From Candidatus Binataceae bacterium (GTDB lineage: Bacteria > Desulfobacterota > Binatia > Binatales > Binataceae), in NCBI GenBank assembly GCA_041491005.1, contig JBGPUE010000010.1:178-64177 (forward strand): 64,000 nt of DNA. The letters are read 5' to 3'. Positions 2,409 to 51,470 of this stretch are shown one piece after another. The position numbers were made by a program, and so were the translations under genes. Within the stretch, counting starts at the first letter, position 1. Each line of letters begins with the position of its first letter. Under the pieces are notes generated by a model. It saw nothing but the letters and a program-made list of their open reading frames with translations, searched no databases and had not been told where the DNA came from.

Positions 2409-5400
2409 ATGGCGAGCGACAGGCACAGCCCGAGCACGCAGGCGGCAGGTAGTCAGGGATTGGAGGTCAAGCCCGACGGTATCCGCGCTGACGGCGGTTC
2501 GGGGCGGCAGGCCGCTGCGATGCGATCCGAGATCGTTTCACCGGACGGCACGGAGCTCTCTCGTCTCTATAACGAGCACTATTTCCAGACCGGTTGCGGC
2601 CCGATCCCTTACGATCGCACGGAACCTTGGCTCACGTTTTTTGGAAACATTGCGGAACAGGTGATCCGTAGCCTCCGGCCGCGCAAGGTTCTCGACGCCG
2701 GCTGTGCGATGGGATTCCTCGTCGAGTCCTTTTGGGATCGAGGTGTCGAAGCTTGGGGGATAGACATCTCTCCTTACGCCATCTCCAGGGTTCGACCTGA
2801 CATGAGGCCGTTTTGCGCAGTTGGTTCGCTTACCGATCCGCTGCAAGGCCCCTTCGATATAGTCGTTTGCACCGAGGTCATCGAGCACATTCCCTCAGAG
2901 CATGAACGGACCGTGGCGGAGAATCTGTGTGCCGCCACCAGCACAATCCTCTTCTCTTCCACGCCCTCTGACTTCGCGGAGGCGACCCACTTCAACGTCC
3001 GGCCGCTTATCTACTGGCTGAGACTATTCTCCGAGTTCGGTTTCTGGCCAGATCTACTATTCGATACGAGCTTTGTCGCGCCTCACGCAATGCTGCTCAG
3101 GAAGAGCGAACAGCGACTGCCGGAAGAAGTGCTGGTGCTGTTCGCCGAGACCCTCCGTCACAAGGCGGCAATTCATGAGCTCAACACCCAGCTCGGTTCG
3201 GCAACCAGTGCATTGCAACAGGCGCGCGGCGATCTCGAAACGGTCCGAGCTCAGGAAGGGCGTGTCCGGCAAGAGACCGTGAGGCTCAAGCAAGCACTCA
3301 ACGCCGCCGAGCGCCGCCTCAGCGATACCTTCGCCAGCCCGGGCTGGAGAGTGATCGAGCGATACCGCGGCTGGGTTCAAAGGCAGCGACGGCTCCGCCC
3401 GCGATTATTCAATCGATACGAGAGAGTCGCGCTCTGGGCGCTTAGGCGGATAGCTCACGAACAGCGCCCAAGTAGACAGCCTGATAGAGGCCGTCGCGCG
3501 ACCGACCAACCTGTGACGCCCGACAACGATCCATCGGAGCCTCCGGCAAGTGCAATCGCGGAGGCCCAAGAACGTCCCGACCAAAGCATCTCCCGGTTCC
3601 TGCTGATCATCAGCGGCTGCCCAGGCGATGCCTACCGGTATCGCGTCGAGCACCAGGCGGAGGAGCTTCGCCTGCTCGGGTTGTCTGTCGAGGCCGCCCT
3701 ATTCGACGCAGTCGACTACACCAGCGTCATAACTCAATACAGCGCCTTTGTTCTCCATCGGGTGCCGCACACTTCAGGCATCGAGCAGTTCATCGATCGG
3801 GCAAAGAGGCTGGGCAAACCCGTTATCTTCGATACGGATGATTTGATTTTTAGCGAGAGCTTCATCGGAGACATTAAGGCAATACGTGACTTCGCGCCCG
3901 ACGAGTACAATCTCTACATAGATGGCGTGAGGCGCTACCACAGAACGCTCTCGCAATGCGCAGCCGCAATCGTTACCACGGAGCCTCTGCGCGACCGGGT
4001 CAAAGAGTCATTCCCCGATCGGCCTGTGTACGTCAATCGAAACGCCGTCAGCGACGAGATGCTCCAGCAGGCCGACTTCGCGCTCGAGCATATACCGAAA
4101 ACTGACGATGGTCTGGTCCGAATTTTATACATGAGCGGAACCAGCACACACAACGATGACTTCGCCCAGTGTGTTCCGGCGCTCGCGCGAATACTCGAGG
4201 CGTACCCGAACGTGCGCCTTATGATTGTCGGTCATCTCGACGTACCTGAACGTCTACGTAGCACGGTGGACCGGCTGGAGATTAGTCCGTTCATGCCATG
4301 GCAGGAATTGCCAGCGCTCATGCGCCGCGCAGACATCAATCTTGCGCCGCTCGAGCTGAATAACGCCTTCACGGAATGCAAGAGCGAACTGAAGTATTTC
4401 GAAGCCGGTCTGCTGGAGCTTCCGACGGTGGCCTCCGACCTGCCCGCCTATCGAGTCGCGATCACCCACGGCGAGAACGGGTTTCTGTGCCGAAGCGAGC
4501 AGGAGTGGTTCGAAACGCTTGAGCGGCTGGCGCTGGACCCCGCGCTGAGACGACGGGTCGGAAGCCGGGCGCGCACGGACGTACTCGCCCGTTACACAAC
4601 CCGCAGTCGTGCCCCTCAGCTCGCGACGGCGTTGCGCCGGATATTCACTGACCTCCGCCTCAATGCTCAAGGCCGTCTTTCTGTGGCGATCGTGATGCGA
4701 GCGCCTATAGCGCAGACGGGGGGAGGGTACCGGAATATCTTCGCCCTTGCGAACCATCTTGCGGCACGCGGACACGACGTACATCTGTATGTCGAGGCGA
4801 TTGCTCACCTCGAGGGAATGAACGATGCTCAGATAGTCTCGTTTTGTCACCGACATTTCGGAGAGAGTGCGGCTCAAATTCACGTTGGCCACGATCAGAT
4901 TCTCGCCAGTGACATTGCCGTCGCCACCAACTGGCCCACGGCCTATGCCGTCACCGCGCTCGAGAGCACGAGATGCAAGGCGTACCTGGTTCAGGACTTC
5001 GAACCGGATTTCTACGATCGGGTGGATCCGGCCCATGAACTGGCAGAACGGACCTACGACCTTCCGCTCAGGAAGATCACGTTGGGGAAGTATCTCCAGA
5101 AGCTGTTTTGCGAGCGTGACCGCCTGCCAACCCACCACATCCCCTTTTCCATTGACTCATCAATCTACCGCAACCTCAACACTCGGCCCCAATCGCCCGT
5201 CCGAGTCCTGTTCTTTGCGCGGCCGGGCCTGAAACGGCGCGCGTACCCGGTCGGCGTGAAAGCCTTGCGAATCTTGGCGCGCGCGTGCCCTGAAGTTGAG
5301 ATCGCGTTCTACGGTATGGTCGAGCGAGAGGAACTGGGGTTCGCCTATCAACACCTCGGGGAATTGTCCTCATCCGAACTCGCGCGGGAGATGAACCGCA

Positions 5401-44988: not shown

Positions 44989-47758
44989 ACGAGACTACGG
45001 AACGCCCGCGGTCGCCACCACAGCAGCGCTCGTGGAGCTGCAAATTGACGGGATCCGCGTCGGCGTGCCACAGGGTACCTCGCTGATGCGCGCCGCCGCC
45101 GAGGCCGGCATCCATATTCCGAAGCTCTGCGCGACCGACTCGCTCGAGGCCTTCGGCTCGTGCCGGCTGTGCCTGGTTGAGATCGACGGCAAGCGCGGCT
45201 ACCCCGCCTCGTGCACTACACGCGTCGAATCGGGGATGCGGGTGCGCACCGAAACGCCGAGGCTCGCGGCGCTGCGGCGAAACGTGATGGAACTCTACGT
45301 CTCGGATCATCCGCTTGATTGCCTGACATGCCCGGCCAACGGCAATTGCGAACTGCAGAACATGGCGGGCGTCGTGGGGTTGCGCGAGGTCCGCTACGGC
45401 TACGACGGTGCGAACCATCTCGACTCCGCAAAGGACCGCTCGAATACCTACTTCACGTTCGATCCGGCCCGATGCATTGTGTGCTCGCGATGCGTGCGCG
45501 CATGCGAAGAGATACAGGGCACTTTCGCTCTGACTATTGACGGCCGGGGATTCCAGTCAGTCATTTCGCCGGGACAGAAGGGTCCGTTCGCCGAGTCTGA
45601 ATGCGTAACTTGCGGTGCATGCGTTTCTGCATGCCCGACCGCGGCGCTCACCGAAAAGTCGATCATTGAGCATGGACAGCCCGAGCGCGACGTAGTCACG
45701 ACCTGTGGCTACTGCGGGGTTGGATGCACGTTCAGAGTCGAGCTCAAAGGCGACACGATTGTAAGGCTGGCTCCGGAGCGCGATGGCCGCGCGAATCACG
45801 GGCACGCGTGCGTCAAGGGCCGTTTCGCGTGGGGCTTTGCCACTCATCCCGACCGCGTGAAGCGACCCCTGATTAGAGAGCGGATCGAGCAGCCGTGGCG
45901 CGAGGTGTCGTGGGAGGAAGCGATCGCTTTCGCGGCCGCGGGGTTCAAGCGCGTCCGGCAGCGCTATGGTCGTGGCGCGCTGGGCGGCATCACGTCGTCG
46001 CGATGCACGAACGAAGAAACCTACCTGGTGCAGAAGCTGGTGCGCGCGGCATTCGGCAATAACAACGTCGATACCTGCGCCCGCGTCTGCCACGCACCGT
46101 CGGGCTACGGGCTCAAGGTCGCCTTCGGCACTGGAGCCGCAACGCAGGACTTCGATTCCGTCCTGGATGCCGATGTCATCATGATAATCGGCGCCAATGT
46201 GACCGAAGCCCATCCGGTATTCGCCTCGCAGATCAAGCGGCGTGTCCGCGAGGGCGTGAAACTCATTGTGGTCGATCCGCGCGCTGTGGAAATCGCGCGG
46301 CTGCCGCACGTCGAGGCCAGCTATCACCTGCGGCTCCATCCCGGTACCAACGTTGCGCTGGTCAACGCATTCGCACATGTCATCATCGTTGAGGGGCTGG
46401 CTCGGGAGGATTTCGTCACTGAGCGATGCGAGCCCGGCGAGTATGCCGCGTGGAAGAAGTTCATTGCGGAAGAGCGCAACTCGCCCGAGGCCGTGGAGCA
46501 CATCACGGGCGTGCCGGCTCAGCAGATTCGCGCCGCCGCACGCCTGTACGCAAACGCACGTAACGGCGCGATCTACTACGGGCTGGGCGTTACGGAGCAC
46601 AGCCAGGGCAGCACGATGGTCCTGGCGATGGCTAACTTGGTGATGGTGACCGGGAACATCGGGAGGCCGGGTGTCGGACTGAATCCACTGCGTGGCCAGA
46701 ACAACGTCCAGGGTGCGTGCGACATGGGCTCATTTCCACACGAGCTGACCGGCAACCGGCCAATCTCGGATCCGATCGTGCGGGCCGAATTCGAGCAGGC
46801 CTGGTCGGCAAAGCTTGATCCGGCGCCCGGCTTCCGGATGCCGAACATGTGGGATGCCGCGCTCGCTGGCAGTTTCAAGGCGGTCTACATCGAAGGCGAG
46901 GATGTCGCCCAGTCGGAACCGAACCTCGATCACGTCGCTCAGGCCCTCCGCGCCATGGAGTTGGTTGTCGTCCAGGATCTCTTCCTCAATGAGACCTCGA
47001 AATTCGCGCACGTATTCCTGCCGGGTGCCTCCTTCCTCGAAAAGGACGGCACCTTCACGAACTCGGAACGCCGCATCTCGCGGATCAGGAAGGTCATGGC
47101 TCCACTCTCCGGCAAACCCGACTGGGAAATTACCTGCAATCTTGCTACCGCGCTCGGCTATCCGATGCACTACTCACACCCGTCGGAGATCATGGACGAG
47201 ATCGCCCGCCTCACGCCGACCTTTCGCGGCGTCAGCTTCGAGAAACTCGACCGGCTCGGCGGCATCCAGTGGCCATGCAACGATGCGGCGCCTGCGGGCA
47301 CGCCGGTCATGCACGTTGGTCAGTTCGTTCGTGGCAAAGGCCAATTCACGATCACCGAGTATGTGCCGACTCCGGAGAAGACCAGCGCGGCCTTTCCGCT
47401 CATCCTTACGACCGGACGAATACTCAACCAATACAACGTCGGGACGCAGACGCGGCGAACGCCGAACATGGAAATGCATACTGAGGATCGTCTCGAAATC
47501 CATCCGCATGATGCTGATCAGCGCGGGATTCGCGATGCCGACTGGGTCGAGGTCAGAAGCAGACAGGGTTCGACCCAGCTTCGCGCGCAACTATCCGGTC
47601 GCGTCCAGCCCGGTCTGGTCTATACGACGTTTCACCATCCGGAGTCGCATACAAATGCGCTCACCACCGACAACTCCGACTGGGCGACAAACTGTCCCGA
47701 GTTCAAGGTGACCGCCGTCGAAGTGGCGCCAGTCGTCGTCGCCCAGAGGAAGCAATGA
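44972..47758 (+). CDS. fdsA: NAD-dependent formate dehydrogenase alpha subunit (molybdopterin, Cys type)
   Basis: 928-aa ORF with a 2Fe-2S motif (CRLCLVEIDG), ferredoxin-type clusters (CIVCSRCVRACEE, CVTCGACVSACPT), the MopB cluster TTCGYCGVGC, and ARVCHAPSG carrying the Mo-ligand Cys (no in-frame TGA). Confidence 0.9.
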   Translation: MLSKAERDYGTPAVATTAALVELQIDGIRVGVPQGTSLMRAAAEAGIHIPKLCATDSLEAFGSCRLCLVEIDGKRGYPASCTTRVESGMRVRTETPRLAALRRNVMELYVSDHPLDCLTCPANGNCELQNMAGVVGLREVRYGYDGANHLDSAKDRSNTYFTFDPARCIVCSRCVRACEEIQGTFALTIDGRGFQSVISPGQKGPFAESECVTCGACVSACPTAALTEKSIIEHGQPERDVVTTCGYCGVGCTFRVELKGDTIVRLAPERDGRANHGHACVKGRFAWGFATHPDRVKRPLIRERIEQPWREVSWEEAIAFAAAGFKRVRQRYGRGALGGITSSRCTNEETYLVQKLVRAAFGNNNVDTCARVCHAPSGYGLKVAFGTGAATQDFDSVLDADVIMIIGANVTEAHPVFASQIKRRVREGVKLIVVDPRAVEIARLPHVEASYHLRLHPGTNVALVNAFAHVIIVEGLAREDFVTERCEPGEYAAWKKFIAEERNSPEAVEHITGVPAQQIRAAARLYANARNGAIYYGLGVTEHSQGSTMVLAMANLVMVTGNIGRPGVGLNPLRGQNNVQGACDMGSFPHELTGNRPISDPIVRAEFEQAWSAKLDPAPGFRMPNMWDAALAGSFKAVYIEGEDVAQSEPNLDHVAQALRAMELVVVQDLFLNETSKFAHVFLPGASFLEKDGTFTNSERRISRIRKVMAPLSGKPDWEITCNLATALGYPMHYSHPSEIMDEIARLTPTFRGVSFEKLDRLGGIQWPCNDAAPAGTPVMHVGQFVRGKGQFTITEYVPTPEKTSAAFPLILTTGRILNQYNVGTQTRRTPNMEMHTEDRLEIHPHDADQRGIRDADWVEVRSRQGSTQLRAQLSGRVQPGLVYTTFHHPESHTNALTTDNSDWATNCPEFKVTAVEVAPVVVAQRKQ

Positions 47759-47858
47759 GTATTCGGACCATCGAGCGTGAACGCTGACCCGACGAGCTTG
47801 CGCCGCGACGGCGGGCGTCACCACGCAAGCCCAAGCCTTGTCGCATCGGAGGCCGGCC

Positions 47859-48332
47859 TCAGTCGCTCCGCTTGGTTTCCTTGTTCGCCCAGCCGGTTTC
47901 ATATGGTGCCGACATTCGACCGATCGCGCGCAGGTGCTTGAACTTCCACTCGCCGTTGACTTTCACGTAGTCCTCTTCGTATCGCGCGGCGAGCCACATC
48001 GCGCGGTTGCCTTTGCGAAAAGTGAATGGCCCCAGGAAGTACCAGGTGCCTTTTGCCTGGTTGCCGTCGACCTCGATGATCGGGTTCATCACGTTATGCT
48101 GCGAAAAGCTGATCCTCTTTTGAAACCCAAGGAACAGGGCGCGAATCGCCTCGTGCCCCTGATGGCGCCCGATTTCTTCGCCTTCCCAGATACCGTCGGC
48201 GGCAAACAGCTTGGTAATCTCGTCAGGATTGTGATCATTGTCGCATACGGCGCAGTACCGCGCCTTCAGCTTCCTGATAGCTTCGATGTCTTCGATAATC
48301 GTAGTGCGTTTCTCGAGTTCTTCTGTAGTCAT
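47859..48332 (-). CDS. SnoaL-like / NTF2-fold protein
   Basis: 157-aa ORF with EDIEAIRKLKARYCAVCDNDHNPDEITKLFAADGIWEG. It is a paralogue of the ORF at 24184-24636. Confidence 0.75.
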   Translation of the reverse strand: MTTEELEKRTTIIEDIEAIRKLKARYCAVCDNDHNPDEITKLFAADGIWEGEEIGRHQGHEAIRALFLGFQKRISFSQHNVMNPIIEVDGNQAKGTWYFLGPFTFRKGNRAMWLAARYEEDYVKVNGEWKFKHLRAIGRMSAPYETGWANKETKRSD

Positions 48333-48342
48333 CGTTGTCTCC

Positions 48343-48660
48343 TTATGCCTGATTGAATATGCGTGCGTAAGTCTTCTGAGTGGCTGCCGCTTGTTCCTGA
48401 GCTTTGCGGCGTTCCTCCGGCGTTGCCATCTCGCCGATCATCTTCCGCTCCAGCGCGATGCCCTCTTTCAACGAAAGCTCCACGCCGCGGTTCATAAGCC
48501 GCTTCACAGTTTTCAGCGCATAAGCCGCCCGCTCGATATAAACGCGCGCCATCTCTTCGCATGTCCCGATCAGCTCGCCCGGGGGCACTACTCGATTCAC
48601 GAGGCCCACGCGAAATGCTTCCTGTGACGTCCACGGAAGACCGCTGCATTCCGGCCTGAC
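48343..48660 (-). pseudogene. 3' fragment of an enoyl-CoA hydratase/isomerase (crotonase) gene
   Basis: Only the C-terminal ~100 aa of a crotonase are readable (LPWTSQEAFRVGLVNRVVPPGELIGTCEEMARVYIERAAYALKTVKRLMNRG...). The upstream part of the listed ORF (SNGGSGLRPSPSPARARAAS...) is an out-of-frame reading of the neighbouring ATPase remnant. No N-terminal oxyanion-hole region exists. Confidence 0.6.
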
Positions 48661-49515
48661 CATGAGCGCCACCGGATAGGTCGAAGAAAAAGGGTGCTTG
48701 CGCCATCTTGTTGCAGCCCAAGATGCTGACGCCGCGCGCGCTCTCGCTGGGGATGGACTTGGCCGTAAACCCGAACCACCATTTGACACTGCCTACCCCA
48801 AGCACATTTTCCCATCCATCATTCTCTCCTTGGAAGCGAAATTGCCGGGTTGGGCTGTACACCGCGATTGGGTTGCCATTGATTTCGACCTCAAAGCTCT
48901 TCCCGAGGATGGAGAAGCGTCGCGACATGGACTGACGGAAATCATCTTCGTCGATTGAGCGGGCGATCTGCAGGTCTCTCAACAGTACGACCGTTCCATT
49001 AGCATCCTTTGTCTTGGCATCTTCCAAGATCGTTGGCTCATAGTTCTCCACCAGATTGCCTGCCCGCCCTTCGTTATCTTCTCGAAGTCCATCTGGAAAT
49101 GCGTGGCCCACCGGGAACACACCGTCCGCACCTCCACGACCTGAGCGATGCCGAAACCAGCGCGCTTGCCCAAGCCTTTCCGGCCCATCACGACCCGGTT
49201 GCCCGGCGTCTTCTCCCCTTCAGCTTTTCGGCGGTCGCGGCCCACGACGAGATATGCCTGCTGCACCTCGTCCCAAGTCATACCGCGGCCGTTGTCGGCC
49301 ACGATGATCCGCTGGTCCTTCATGCCCACGCCGAAAGGAACGGTCACTGTGACCTTGGTGGCGTCAGCGTCCCAAGAGTTTGATATCAGCTCGGCAAGAG
49401 CCGGTACCGCGCCCCTATACATGGACAGACCAAGGTGCTTCACCAAGCCACCCGCGTACTGCATCTGCAGGCGACGCGGGCGTTTCAGAACAATGGCCGT
49501 CTTGCTTGAAGGCAT
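48661..49515 (-). pseudogene. GHKL (HATPase_c_3-type) ATPase remnant: one frameshift, 3'-truncated
   Basis: From the Met at 49515: N box ALAELISNSWDADAT, G1 VADNGRGMTWDEV, G2 GRKGLGKRAGFG. The reading frame changes by 1 nt near 49060-49075 (..FQMDFEKITKGGQ / GNLVENYEPTILEDAKTKDANGTVVLLRDL..) and continues to ..ARGVSILGCNKMAQAPFFFDLSGGAHGQAGMQ. Homology stops at about 48660, where the crotonase fragment begins in another frame. Confidence 0.6.
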
Positions 49516-49763
49516 CTGAAGATAGTAACGCGGTCGTGTCAGCACGTCGACGAATGTCGATGTTTGCAAACGGTTTTGGCGCCAGCAGGATTGGAATCTT
49601 GCCGACCGGCAAACGTACAACTGAAGGTCTGGTGAGATGGCCGATTTTGTGACCGGCGAGAGCATGGTCATCTTGTGCCAGTTGCGATAAGGAATAGGGC
49701 AGGATCAACCATTAGACTGCGCGTCGATGCGGCCCTATGCGGCGCACGACAACGGAGGTCGCG

Positions 49764-51470
49764 ATGTACGATCTGATCATTCGCAATGGCACCGTCATAG
49801 ATGGCACCGGCATGCCGCGCTTTCGGGCCGATGTCGGCATCGCCCAACGCAAGGTCGTGGCGATCGGGAGAATCCGCGAGAGTGCCCGGGAGACGATCGA
49901 TGCAGAAGGCCATATTGTGGCTCCGGGCTTCGTCGACGCACACACCCATATGGACGCGCAGGTCTTCTGGGATGCGCTCGGCACCTGCTCATGCTGGCAT
50001 GGCGTCACCTCGGTGGTGATGGGCAATTGCGGCTTCTCGCTGGCGCCATGCGCAGAGAAGGACAAGCTTTTGGTGATGCGAAATCTCGAACGGGCCGAGG
50101 ACATCGCTCGCGAAGCGATGGAGGCGGGCATCAAGTGGTCGTGGACCACCTTCCCGCAGTACCTCGATGCCGTCGACGGATTGCCCAAAGGCATCAACTA
50201 CGCGGCCTACATAGGCCATTCCGCCCTGCGCACCTATGTGATGGGCGAACGTGCGTTCAATGAGACCGCGACCACCGAAGACCTGGCGCTGATGAAGCAT
50301 GAGCTGCGCAGCGCGATTCGCGCCGGCGCGATCGGCTTCACCACTTCGCGGACCAGCAACCATCAGACGCCGGATGGGCATCCCGTCGCCAGCCGCATCG
50401 CCAACTGGGATGAAGTCAGGCAACTGGTGGGCGAGATGGGCGATCTGAACGCGGGCATCTTTGAAATCGCCGGCGAAGATACCGGTGCCGAGGGCGAACG
50501 TCTGGACAACTACCTCGCCCGCCTCAAGGCGCTGGCGGTCGACACCGGCGTTCCCGTGACTTATGGCATGTTCAGCTCGCGCCGCGCCCCGGGCTATTGG
50601 CGGCGTTACTTTGCGATGGCGGATGAAGCCGAGGCTGCTGGTGGACGGATGTTTGTCCAGGTGCACAGCCGGGCGCTCAACCTGCTGCTCTCCTTCGAAA
50701 CATACATGCCCTTCGACCGGCTGCCGGCCTGGCGCGAAATTCGCAAATTGCCGCTGGCCGAACAGGAAGCCGCGCTACGCAATCCCGAAGTGCGGCGCAA
50801 GCTGGTTGAGGCATCCCACGAACGGTCCCCATCGAGCCAGCATGAGGTTGGCGCGGAGGCGCGGCCAGCGAACTACAACTGGATTTTCCCGCTCGACAAG
50901 CCAACTCCGCCTTATCGTTCGATCGCTCAGATCGCCGATGAACTGAAGAAGGATCCGGTTGACGTAGTCATCGATCTGGCCCTGGACAAGCACCTGAAGC
51001 AGTTCTTCCTGCAGACTCTGGTCAACGAAAACCAGGACGACGTGCTCGAGATGATGCGCCATCCGCGCTCAGTGGTCACCTTCTCGGATTCTGGCGCACA
51101 CGTCTCGCAGATCATGGATTCGTCGCTGCAGACGCACGTGCTGAGCCATTGGGTGCGCGAACGACAAGCGCTGACGTTGGAAGACGCGGTCCGGATGCTG
51201 AGTTTCGTCCCGGCGTATCGCTGGGGTCTCACCGGACGCGGGATGCTGCGCGAAGGCAGCTTTGCCGACGTCATCGTGTTCGATCCTGAAACGATAACGC
51301 CGAAACTTCCCGAACTGGTTTACGACCTGCCGGCCGGTGCGCGGCGCCTCAAGCAGAAGTCAACGGGCCTGCTCGCCACAGTCGTGAACGGCGAGGTCGT
51401 GCTGCGCAATAACGAACATACCGGTGCGCTTCCTGGCCAGCTATTGCGCGGCCCCCTGGCCGGAAACTGA
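49764..51470 (+). CDS. N-acyl-D-amino-acid deacylase (D-aminoacylase) family amidohydrolase
   Basis: MYDLIIRNGTVIDGTGMPRFRADVGI...GHIVAPGFVDAHTHMD and C-terminal FADVIVFDPETI. Met at 49764 chosen (the listed ORF starts 9 codons earlier). Confidence 0.85.
   Translation: MYDLIIRNGTVIDGTGMPRFRADVGIAQRKVVAIGRIRESARETIDAEGHIVAPGFVDAHTHMDAQVFWDALGTCSCWHGVTSVVMGNCGFSLAPCAEKDKLLVMRNLERAEDIAREAMEAGIKWSWTTFPQYLDAVDGLPKGINYAAYIGHSALRTYVMGERAFNETATTEDLALMKHELRSAIRAGAIGFTTSRTSNHQTPDGHPVASRIANWDEVRQLVGEMGDLNAGIFEIAGEDTGAEGERLDNYLARLKALAVDTGVPVTYGMFSSRRAPGYWRRYFAMADEAEAAGGRMFVQVHSRALNLLLSFETYMPFDRLPAWREIRKLPLAEQEAALRNPEVRRKLVEASHERSPSSQHEVGAEARPANYNWIFPLDKPTPPYRSIAQIADELKKDPVDVVIDLALDKHLKQFFLQTLVNENQDDVLEMMRHPRSVVTFSDSGAHVSQIMDSSLQTHVLSHWVRERQALTLEDAVRMLSFVPAYRWGLTGRGMLREGSFADVIVFDPETITPKLPELVYDLPAGARRLKQKSTGLLATVVNGEVVLRNNEHTGALPGQLLRGPLAGN

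What the first reader, a model, noticed from the sequence alone, without database searches (positions are those of the whole stretch)
48343..49736. Chimeric scar: frameshifted, truncated GHKL ATPase gene abutting the 3' end of a crotonase gene
From the Met at 49515 the minus strand encodes clear GHKL/HATPase_c_3 boxes: ELISNSWDAD, DNGRGM, GRKGLGKRAGFG. The frame slips by one nucleotide around 49060-49075, close to a short GGCGGGC stretch. The protein then continues through a recognisable middle region (..ARGVSILGCNKMAQAPFFFDLSGG..).

At about 48660 the similarity ends abruptly and, in a third frame, only the last ~100 residues of an enoyl-CoA hydratase follow. So two genes were broken and joined by a deletion or rearrangement.

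Stand-alone GHKL ATPases of this type are frequent components of phage-defence and mobile-element loci. The lower-GC 220 bp upstream (49516-49736) and the interruption of a catabolic operon fit a decayed accessory insertion. Alternatively, the single frameshift could be a sequencing error.
Basis: partly seen in the sequence, partly recalled or inferred. Interest (0 to 1): 0.5.

Follow-up and report, generated by a model that had tools for sequence, protein, structure and literature searches.

The report
Decayed restriction enzyme gene scar
This is a dead remnant: the front 45% of a restriction-enzyme gene, already frameshifted, joined by an old deletion to the last 100 codons of an enoyl-CoA hydratase gene. 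It is ordinary genome decay, not a working or new system.

Summary

- **Restriction gene remnant.** Minus strand 49515-48644 holds the first 291 of about 640 codons of a restriction endonuclease with an N-terminal GHKL ATPase domain. It is related to the BbrUII/HgiDII family. A 1-nt deletion at 49057-49060 breaks the frame.
- **Junction.** At 48646-48644, a 3-nt CAG shared by both parent genes, it is joined to the last 100 codons of a crotonase (48645-48346).
- **What is missing.** The nuclease domain, the partner cytosine-5 methyltransferase and the crotonase catalytic core are all absent from the window.
- **Normal state of the family.** Homologues are about 640 aa, with the GHKL domain at the N-terminus and a NucS-like nuclease at the C-terminus. 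In 72 of 80 metagenome loci a C5 methyltransferase lies next to the gene.
- **Not a sequencing error.** The frameshift and junction recur without gaps in four other assemblies (98.9-100% identical). A sister allele keeps the junction but has lost three more pieces of the GHKL remnant.

Best reading: a deletion removed the nuclease half of the restriction gene, the methyltransferase gene and the 5' part of the crotanase gene (and probably its operon). Neutral erosion followed. The gene is a restriction-modification remnant, not a stand-alone defence ATPase. Interest is low.

The parts
49516..49736 (.). 221-bp spacer between the divergent N-acyl-D-amino-acid deacylase gene and the start of the restriction-gene remnant. 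It presumably held the restriction gene's promoter. Its origin (host or element) is undetermined.
   Evidence: GC is 53.8%. No sigma-70-like promoter or terminator was found. It shows no similarity to the upstream regions of homologues L031 and L032.
49059..49515 (-). Restriction-endonuclease remnant, segment A: codons 1 to about 152, the GHKL ATP-binding domain (ELISNSWDAD, DNGRGM, GRKGLGKRAGFG).
   Evidence: HATPase_c_3 E=1.9e-20 and NF050001 E=3.3e-34. It is 70% identical to L037 over residues 4-145.
49057..49060 (-). Frameshift site: one base is missing, giving ...KGGQA | NLVENYEP....
   Evidence: Two tblastn segments, in frames -2 and -1, meet at 49057-49060. With one base restored, the corrected protein aligns to the homologues without a gap at this site. 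The site is present without gaps in L001, L002, L027 and L119; L028 (window 47871-48816) does not reach it.
48644..49057 (-). Restriction-endonuclease remnant, segment B: codons about 153-291 (middle domain), ending ...FFFDLSGGAHGQAGMQ.
   Evidence: NF050001 profile positions 142-205, E=9.7e-10. P0020 and P0026 are 64-71% identical to it. Homologues continue with YMTGEV...; the window does not.
48644..48646 (-). Deletion junction: CAG, a 3-nt microhomology present in both parent genes (restriction gene ATGCAG|TAC; crotonase TTCAG|CGG).
   Evidence: Nucleotide alignment of the window with crotonase orthologues L029, L030 and L036 and with restriction-gene homologues L031 and L032. blastn homology to the crotonase orthologues starts at 48646.
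48343..48645 (-). Crotonase (enoyl-CoA hydratase) remnant: the last 100 codons plus the stop. The catalytic core is missing.
   Evidence: ECH_1 profile positions 157-236 of 251. It is 77-80% identical to residues 82-180 of P0057-P0060. The full gene is about 270 codons in L029, L030 and L036.
47859..48332 (-). Intact SnoaL_4-family gene immediately downstream. Its AAGGAG ribosome-binding site overlaps the stop codon of the crotonase remnant.
   Evidence: SnoaL_4 E=1.7e-28. Sequence read.
49737..51470 (+). Divergent intact neighbour: an Amidohydro_3 protein that JGI names N-acyl-D-amino-acid deacylase. It bounds the scar on the other side.
   Evidence: ORF list; Pfam families on the L002 gene calls; source name.

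Best explanation
The region is a non-functional scar left by loss of a Type II-like restriction-modification module.

**Ancestral state.** The ancestor carried a gene of about 640 codons for a restriction endonuclease. It had an N-terminal GHKL ATPase, a middle domain and a C-terminal NucS/RecB-like PD-(D/E)xK nuclease. In most homologues a cytosine-5 DNA methyltransferase gene follows it on the same strand. Further downstream on that strand lay a crotonase gene and then a SnoaL-family gene.

**The deletion.** One illegitimate-recombination deletion, between two CAG triplets, removed four things:
- codons from about 292 to the end of the restriction gene, including the nuclease;
- the methyltransferase gene;
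- whatever lay between it and the crotonase gene;
- the first 170 or so codons of the crotonase.

Removing the nuclease and the methyltransferase together is a non-lethal way to lose such a module (inferred).

**The frameshift.** A 1-nt deletion at 49057-49060 also breaks the remnant. Its order relative to the large deletion cannot be determined.

**Afterwards.** The remnant has drifted since, and in a sister allele it has lost three more internal pieces.

**Shown:** the identity of both fragments, the frameshift, the exact junction, the absence of nuclease and methyltransferase from the window, recurrence in independent assemblies, and further erosion in a sister allele.

**Inferred:** that a methyltransferase was once present here, the single-deletion scenario, and the lack of any residual function.
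For: **Identity of the fragments**
- both fragments match their families.
- full-length homologues are about 640 aa and end in a VDFFC...EVKRP nuclease motif.
- a full-length homologue scores 317 bits on NF050001 and matches PADLOC REase_II (E=1.9e-46) and NucS (E=5.6e-6). Its neighbour is a dcm-type methyltransferase (E=1e-40).

**Normal state of the family**
- 72 of 80 metagenome loci have a C5 methyltransferase within about 630 bp. In 47 of them it lies downstream on the same strand.
- 67 of 80 restriction genes are full-length and uninterrupted.

**What is and is not in the window**
- no methyltransferase and no nuclease C-terminus anywhere in the window.
- the junction, with CAG microhomology.
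- the frameshift coordinates.

**Recurrence and decay**
- the same lesions in L001, L002, L027 and L119; L028 spans the junction only.
- allele L117/L118 has the same junction plus three more deletions (79, 83 and 218 bp) that remove the ATP-binding motifs.
- the crotonase remnant has L>P and P>R changes at positions conserved in all orthologues. Changed codons are 6 synonymous to 5 non-synonymous.
- other decayed copies of the same restriction-gene family exist (L031 frameshift, L032 nonsense, P0004 and P0011 5' remnants).
Against: - No relative with the intact site was found, so the presence of a methyltransferase here, the size of the deletion and the single-event scenario are all inferred.
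- The remnant has no in-frame stop in about 291 codons. It is 100% identical across four assemblies whose flanks differ by up to 4-6%. On its own that pattern could also suggest constraint or a recent sweep.
- The synonymous and non-synonymous counts are too small to prove neutrality.
- The full-length family scores below the NCBIfam cut-off (317 against 550 bits). It is a relative of BbrUII/HgiDII, not an equivalog, and restriction activity has never been tested for it.
Confidence: 0.88

Rival explanations
1. The frameshift, the junction, or both are sequencing or assembly errors. The real gene would then be a single long open reading frame.
For: A single-base indel is the commonest assembly error. 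Long-read contigs of relatives (L029, L030, L036) do show many such errors.
Against: - The identical indel state and junction appear without gaps in L001, L002, L027 and L119, which come from different assemblers and samples; L028 confirms the junction only. Three of them differ from the window at other positions.
- Restoring the base would still give a protein that ends at the crotonase junction with no nuclease domain.
Confidence: 0.01
2. The remnant has been put to use. One version is a truncated GHKL domain protein (49515-48979, 178 aa) with a role such as interfering with incoming enzymes of the same family. The other is that the former restriction-gene promoter now drives the downstream SnoaL gene, so the DNA is kept by selection.
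For: - There are no stop codons within either reading segment.
- The 870 bp are identical in strains whose flanks differ by 4-6%.
- SnoaL follows the crotonase remnant after 10 nt, with its ribosome-binding site on the remnant's stop codon. No terminator lies between the restriction-gene start and SnoaL.
Against: - Sister allele L117/L118 has deleted the N-box, the DxGxG box and the GxxGxG box of the GHKL domain and still keeps SnoaL, so the protein is dispensable.
- There is an L>R change in the conserved GLGKLAGFG motif.
- No promoter-like site was found.
- Mosaic identity is also expected from recombination or from mixed-strain consensus contigs.
Confidence: 0.06
3. The gene was a stand-alone GHKL defence ATPase (paraMORC- or MzaB-like) that works with separate partners. 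On this view it was never a restriction endonuclease with its own methyltransferase.
For: - There are weak hits to MzaB (NCBIfam E=2.8e-6; PADLOC E=1.1e-7).
- GHKL ATPases are common in defence islands (Iyer et al. 2008, PMC2292703).
Against: - The best matches by far are the BbrUII/HgiDII restriction enzyme and PADLOC REase_II.
- Every full-length homologue carries a fused NucS-like nuclease.
- 72 of 80 homologous loci have an adjacent C5 methyltransferase.
Confidence: 0.03
4. The frameshift is programmed or phase-variable, that is, a regulatory switch for the restriction gene.
For: A second homologue (L031) has an independent frameshift only about 5 codons away, next to an AAAA run.
Against: - 67 of 80 homologues read through this region in one frame.
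- The window site has no long homopolymer or repeat (GCAAT).
- The gene lacks its nuclease half, so switching would have nothing to regulate.
Confidence: 0.01

Closest known systems
R.HgiDII / R.BbrUII family restriction endonucleases (NCBIfam NF050001) with their cytosine-5 methyltransferases
   Same: - N-terminal GHKL ATPase domain followed by a long C-terminal part. Length is about 640-660 aa.
- The profile is matched over positions 10-205 by the window remnant and more widely by full-length homologues.
- The partner is a dcm-type C5 methyltransferase.
- Orlowski & Bujnicki 2008 (PMC2441816) describe R.HgiDII as having an N-terminal GHKL domain.
   Different: - The score is below the curated cut-off (317 bits for a full-length homologue against 550), so it is a relative and not an equivalog.
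- The recognition site is unknown. GTCGAC is not avoided in the window.
- The window copy is a frameshifted fragment covering 45% of the gene, with no nuclease and no methyltransferase.
paraMORC3-type GHKL proteins with a C-terminal RecB-like nuclease (Iyer, Abhiman & Aravind 2008, PMC2292703)
   Same: - The architecture is a GHKL ATPase plus a C-terminal PD-(D/E)xK (RecB/NucS-like) nuclease.
- It is associated with restriction-modification gene neighbourhoods.
   Different: - Membership in that particular family was not tested, because no model of it was available here.
- The paper notes that many nuclease-bearing paraMORC3 genes stand alone. This family is almost always next to a methyltransferase.
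Decayed restriction-modification systems (inactivated restriction genes, orphaned or lost methyltransferases)
   Same: - The restriction gene is inactivated by a frameshift and a truncation.
- Homologous loci show the same kinds of lesion (L031 frameshift and L032 nonsense, both with an intact methyltransferase).
   Different: - Here the methyltransferase is gone too.
- The deletion also ran into a host catabolic gene.
Crotonase / enoyl-CoA hydratase superfamily (Pfam PF00378)
   Same: The last 100 residues (the C-terminal helical part) are 77-80% identical to orthologues. In those orthologues the gene closes a TetR, CoA-transferase, SDR and crotonase operon.
   Different: The first 170 or so residues, which hold the GGGCE and LPEIRFG active-site segments, are deleted. 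It cannot be an enzyme.

Membership tests
BbrUII/HgiDII family restriction enzyme (NF050001) | N-terminal GHKL (Bergerat-fold) ATPase domain with N, DxGxG and GxxGxG boxes | tested here: met
   HATPase_c_3 E=1.9e-20; NF050001 profile positions 10-134, E=3.3e-34. The boxes ELISNSWDAD, DNGRGM and GRKGLGKRAGFG were read.
BbrUII/HgiDII family restriction enzyme (NF050001) | Whole-protein score at or above the curated equivalog cut-off (550 bits) | tested here: not met
   The window segments score 118.5 and 37.6 bits. The full-length homologue from L031 scores 317 bits. It is a related family, not an equivalog.
BbrUII/HgiDII family restriction enzyme (NF050001) | C-terminal part carrying the nuclease | tested here: not met
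   It is absent from the whole window. It is present in homologues: NucS E=5.6e-6, NucS_C E=0.004, motif VDFFC...EVKRP.
BbrUII/HgiDII family restriction enzyme (NF050001) | Adjacent cognate cytosine-5 DNA methyltransferase | tested here: not met
   No methyltransferase similarity better than E=0.24 anywhere in the window. 72 of 80 homologous loci have one next to the gene.
BbrUII/HgiDII family restriction enzyme (NF050001) | Sequence-specific, methylation-sensitive cleavage (GTCGAC for HgiDII and BbrUII, stated from my own knowledge) | not testable with these tools
   Only an indirect look was possible: GTCGAC occurs 42 times against 31.5 expected, so it is not avoided.
paraMORC3 (GHKL + S5 + RecB-like nuclease; PMC2292703) | S5-fold domain after the GHKL domain, and a C-terminal E-D-ExK nuclease | not tested
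   No family model or structure was run. The architecture of full-length homologues is compatible.
Crotonase / enoyl-CoA hydratase (PF00378) | Sequence match above the Pfam gathering score | tested here: met
   34.5 bits against a cut-off of 27, covering profile positions 157-236 of 251 only.
Crotonase / enoyl-CoA hydratase (PF00378) | Complete fold with oxyanion hole and catalytic Glu segments (N-terminal 170 or so residues) | tested here: not met
   Homology to orthologues starts at their residue 82 of 182 (a partial gene call), which is about residue 170 of 270. Upstream of that point the DNA is restriction-gene sequence.
Functional (intact) gene | One uninterrupted reading frame that is maintained across close relatives | tested here: not met
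   The region uses three frames. Sister allele L117 has three further internal deletions.

The most novel reading that the evidence does not exclude
The 5' remnant of the restriction gene is not merely junk. Its former promoter and leader may now supply transcription for the orphaned SnoaL gene. The 100% identity of the 870-bp remnant across strains whose flanks differ by 4-6% may then reflect a recent selective sweep or exchange of this rearranged block. More generally, 5' stubs of restriction genes (the window, P0004, P0011) may be the characteristic footprint of the only non-lethal one-step route for losing an R-then-M module.
Probability: 0.07. Interest if true: 0.35.

Novelty: new member of a known kind. 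Interest (0 to 1): 0.15.

Why it matters
The direct importance is small. The region should be annotated as two pseudogene fragments, not as a hypothetical ATP-binding protein plus a short enoyl-CoA hydratase, which is how the public gene calls treat it.

It is a clean, base-resolved example of how a restriction-modification module is lost. The deletion took the nuclease and the methyltransferase together, used a 3-nt microhomology and damaged a host operon on the way. A sister allele shows the next stage of erosion.

It also shows that this GHKL-nuclease family, a relative of HgiDII/BbrUII, is widespread in environmental bacteria and almost always paired with a C5 methyltransferase.

Tried and rejected
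**1. Recovering the intact ancestral site**
- The genome-collection scan with the SnoaL protein found Binataceae relatives at 74-82% identity. None has a crotonase or restriction-modification genes beside SnoaL.
- The protein search with the crotonase fragment found nothing intact closer than 80%. Those loci (L029, L030, L036) lack SnoaL.
- The size and content of the deletion therefore stay unknown.

**2. Searching the window for displaced pieces**
- I looked for the methyltransferase, the nuclease C-terminus and the upstream crotonase-operon genes. None is there. The only hits were two unrelated SDR paralogues at about 34% identity.

**3. Looking for mobile-element boundaries**
- There are no meaningful direct or inverted repeats in 47000-51000.
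- There are no tRNA genes or Rfam matches in the window.
- There is no integrase or transposase within 10 kb either side (gene calls on L002).
- The upstream spacer shows no similarity to the upstream regions of homologues.

**4. Promoter and terminator scan**
- Nothing above background.

**5. Avoidance of GTCGAC as a trace of past restriction pressure**
- The site is not avoided. The test is uninformative because the specificity of this family is unknown.

**6. Excess of unusual residues as a sign of relaxed constraint**
- The window has 4 unique changes at 103 otherwise invariant positions (L>R, M>I, P>S, R>C). Intact homologues show a similar number, so the result is only suggestive.

**7. 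Solved structures**
- Only weak HSP90/TRAP1 GHKL hits (E about 0.002). No structure prediction was run because it would not change the verdict.

**8. A programmed frameshift**
- Rejected, see the rival explanations.

Full report
**Observation**

The minus strand between 49515 and 48343 reads in three successive frames.

- Frame -2, from the ATG at 49515, gives a GHKL ATP-binding domain. Pfam HATPase_c_3 scores E=1.9e-20. NCBIfam NF050001, the BbrUII/HgiDII family restriction enzyme, scores E=3.3e-34 over profile positions 10-134.
- Frame -1 continues the same profile at positions 142-205 with E=9.7e-10.
- A tblastn of the closest full-length homologue (L037) gives two segments that meet at 49057-49060. 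Residues 4-145 are 70% identical in frame -2. From residue 145 on, identity is 64% in frame -1.
- With one base restored...KGGQA-NLVENYEP... aligns without a gap to ...KGGQAEMVENYEP... in homologues. The lesion is therefore a single-base deletion in CAG-GC(N)-AAT.

The coordinates shift only slightly: the frameshift is at 49057-49060 and the end of the GHKL similarity is at 48644.

**What the GHKL gene was**

A search of 5.8 billion proteins found 55 relatives.

- Reconstructed full-length genes are about 640 codons. They hold a GHKL domain, a conserved middle domain, a helical region and a C-terminal domain with the motif VDFFC...(R/K)xLxVE(V/I)KRP.
- A full-length homologue scores 317 bits on NF050001, below the 550-bit equivalog cut-off. 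It also matches PADLOC Type II REase models (E=1.9e-46 and 2.4e-27), NucS (E=5.6e-6) and, weakly, Pfam NucS_C.
- The gene next to it is a dcm-type cytosine-5 methyltransferase (TIGR00675, E about 1e-40).
- In 80 loci fetched from metagenomes, 72 have such a methyltransferase within about 630 bp. The arrangements are 47 downstream on the same strand, 18 upstream on the same strand and 7 on the opposite strand.
- Each of the eight loci without a methyltransferase has a contig end within about 200 bp of the gene on at least one side.
- 67 of the 80 restriction genes are full-length and uninterrupted.

The family is therefore a restriction-modification pair. Its architecture is the one described for R.HgiDII (N-terminal GHKL domain; PMC2441816) and for nuclease-bearing paraMORC proteins (PMC2292703). 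It is not a stand-alone ATPase.

**The junction**

Homologues continue ...GQAGMQ-YMTGEV.... The window reads ...GQAGMQ-RSSVDV... and loses similarity at that point.

In the third frame, the sequence from 48645 onward is 77-80% identical to the C-terminal 100 residues of crotonases (SGLPWT...ARIF). Nucleotide alignment shows the following:

- the restriction-gene parents read GG(C/T)ATGCAG|TAC;
- the crotonase parents read (C/T)TTCAG|CGG(A/T)CTTCC;
- the window reads GGAATGCAGCGGTCTTCC.

The breakpoint therefore lies within a shared CAG at 48646-48644. This is the signature of a deletion by illegitimate recombination.

Orthologous crotonases are about 270 codons. They close an operon of TetR, two family-III CoA-transferases, an SDR and the crotonase. 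The window keeps only the last 100 codons, without the GGGCE and LPEIRFG active-site segments.

Nothing resembling the nuclease half, the methyltransferase or the upstream operon genes is present anywhere in the 64-kb window.

**Not an artefact, and older than the strain splits**

| Locus | Source | Identity to window | Lesions |
|---|---|---|---|
| L001 | Logan SRR29604879 | 100% | same frameshift and junction, no gaps |
| L028 | Logan SRR35960035 | 100% | same junction, no gaps (does not reach the frameshift site) |
| L002 | JGI 3300053057 | 99.89% | same frameshift and junction, no gaps |
| L119 | NCBI GCA_041495745.1 | 99.2% | same frameshift and junction, no gaps in the scar |
| L027 | NCBI GCA_041483395.1 | 98.94% | same frameshift and junction, no gaps |

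A more divergent allele, L117 and L118 (NCBI GCA_041493145.1 and Logan SRR35968830, 96-97% identical), keeps exactly the same junction. It has three additional internal deletions in the GHKL remnant, at window 49426-49348, 49292-49210 and 49190-48973. Together they remove all three ATP-binding boxes.

In that allele the crotonase remnant carries L>P and P>R changes at positions conserved in every orthologue. Its changed codons are 6 synonymous to 5 non-synonymous, against 19 to 6 in the neighbouring formate dehydrogenase gene. The numbers are small, but the direction fits neutral decay. The big deletion predates a split of about 4% divergence.

**Surroundings**

- The scar lies between a divergent, intact N-acyl-D-amino-acid deacylase gene (49737-51470) and an intact SnoaL_4 gene (48332-47859). 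The AAGGAG ribosome-binding site of SnoaL overlaps the stop codon of the crotonase remnant.
- Within 10 kb on either side there is no integrase or transposase. No flanking repeats were found, and the window has no tRNA genes or Rfam matches.
- The host is probably a soil member of Binataceae. The evidence is that SnoaL relatives at 74-82% identity are nearly all from Binataceae or "delta proteobacterium" MAGs. This assignment is an inference.

**Mechanism (inferred)**

In the commonest arrangement, with the methyltransferase gene downstream of the restriction gene, a cell that loses the methyltransferase while keeping an active nuclease is expected to cut its own DNA. That follows from established knowledge of restriction-modification addiction.

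A single deletion that starts inside the restriction gene, upstream of its nuclease domain, and runs through the methyltransferase gene removes both at once. It leaves exactly a 5' stub of the restriction gene, as seen here. The frameshift may have come before the deletion (inactivating the enzyme first) or after it (drift). The data cannot order the two events, because the only allele that differs has deleted the frameshift site.

Other decayed copies of this family support frequent inactivation:

- L031 has an independent frameshift about 5 codons away, with an intact methyltransferase.
- L032 has a nonsense codon before the nuclease domain, with an intact methyltransferase.
- P0004 is a 5' stub abutting an RHS gene, with a transposase nearby.
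- P0011 is a 5' stub found on 12 contigs.

**Rivals**

- *Sequencing error:* excluded by the independent assemblies.
- *Programmed or phase-variable frameshift:* excluded. There is no slippery repeat, homologues read through the site, and the gene has no nuclease left to regulate.
- *Stand-alone defence ATPase:* contradicted by the family's architecture and gene context.
- *A residual role* (truncated GHKL protein, or promoter capture for SnoaL): cannot be fully excluded. The remnant is 100% identical in four assemblies whose flanks differ by up to 4-6%, and no terminator separates it from SnoaL. However, the L117 allele dispenses with the GHKL motifs. Mosaic identity is also what recombination or mixed-strain consensus contigs would produce.

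**Verdict**

This is a real, precisely mapped pseudogene scar. It is a decayed member of a known kind of system, an HgiDII/BbrUII-like GHKL-nuclease restriction-modification module, fused by deletion to the tail of a crotonase gene. The scientific surprise is low. The practical value is correct annotation and a tidy example of how a restriction-modification module is lost.

Noticed in passing
window 48016-50981 (against L027); 48646-49515 (against L119): Divergence between strains is mosaic. There are zero mismatches to L027 over 2,966 bp that include the scar, flanked by 4.3% divergence on the left and about 1% on the right. L119 is identical over the 870-bp GHKL remnant but differs by 4-6% in the adjacent spacer and in SnoaL. 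This could be recent recombination, a sweep, or mixed-strain consensus contigs.
   Followed up: partly
L117 5823-5895 (window 49426-48973): A sister allele from NCBI GCA_041493145.1 and Logan SRR35968830 has three further internal deletions (79, 83 and 218 bp) in the GHKL remnant. It keeps the same junction with the crotonase remnant.
   Followed up: yes
L031 7486-9404; L032 701-2640: Two homologous restriction genes with intact downstream C5 methyltransferases are themselves inactivated. L031 has a frameshift next to an AAAA run, only about 5 codons from the window's frameshift site. L032 has a nonsense codon just before the nuclease domain.
   Followed up: partly
L121 7213-7977; L033-L035 8001-8552: There are further 5' stubs of the same restriction-gene family. 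P0004 (75% identical to the window's remnant) loses similarity after about residue 205 and abuts an RHS-repeat gene, with a Transposase_mut gene nearby. P0011 occurs on 12 contigs that all end about 140 bp after it, in at least two different upstream contexts, which suggests a repeated or mobile sequence.
   Followed up: no
L119 about 4215-4335 (window 50928): In MAG GCA_041495745.1 the neighbouring N-acyl-D-amino-acid deacylase gene carries a nonsense substitution (RSIAQIADE becomes RSIA*IADE). The gene is called there as two ORFs.
   Followed up: partly
L003 1-87 (window 48419-48333): A 97.7%-identical contig from the sister sample JGI 3300053058 ends 76 bp into the crotonase remnant. The break may mark strain heterogeneity upstream of that point, possibly a different allele of the scar.
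   Followed up: no
L029, L030, L036: Long-read ENA assemblies (ERZ250395xx/ERZ250396xx) of relatives show many genes split by apparent indel errors, including the crotonase orthologue. As a result the protein database holds only pieces of it, 155-182 aa long.
   Followed up: partly
window 48329-49120, minus strand: A 263-aa ORF runs across the junction. It reads the restriction-gene middle domain in frame and then the crotonase DNA out of frame. It is an artefact of high GC content and the absence of stops, not a gene. Public gene callers instead call a 161-aa HATPase_c_3 ORF and an 88-aa ECH ORF here.
   Followed up: yes
whole window: GTCGAC, the HgiDII/BbrUII site, occurs 42 times against 31.5 expected, so it is not avoided. 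No tRNA genes and no Rfam matches occur in the 64 kb.
   Followed up: yes
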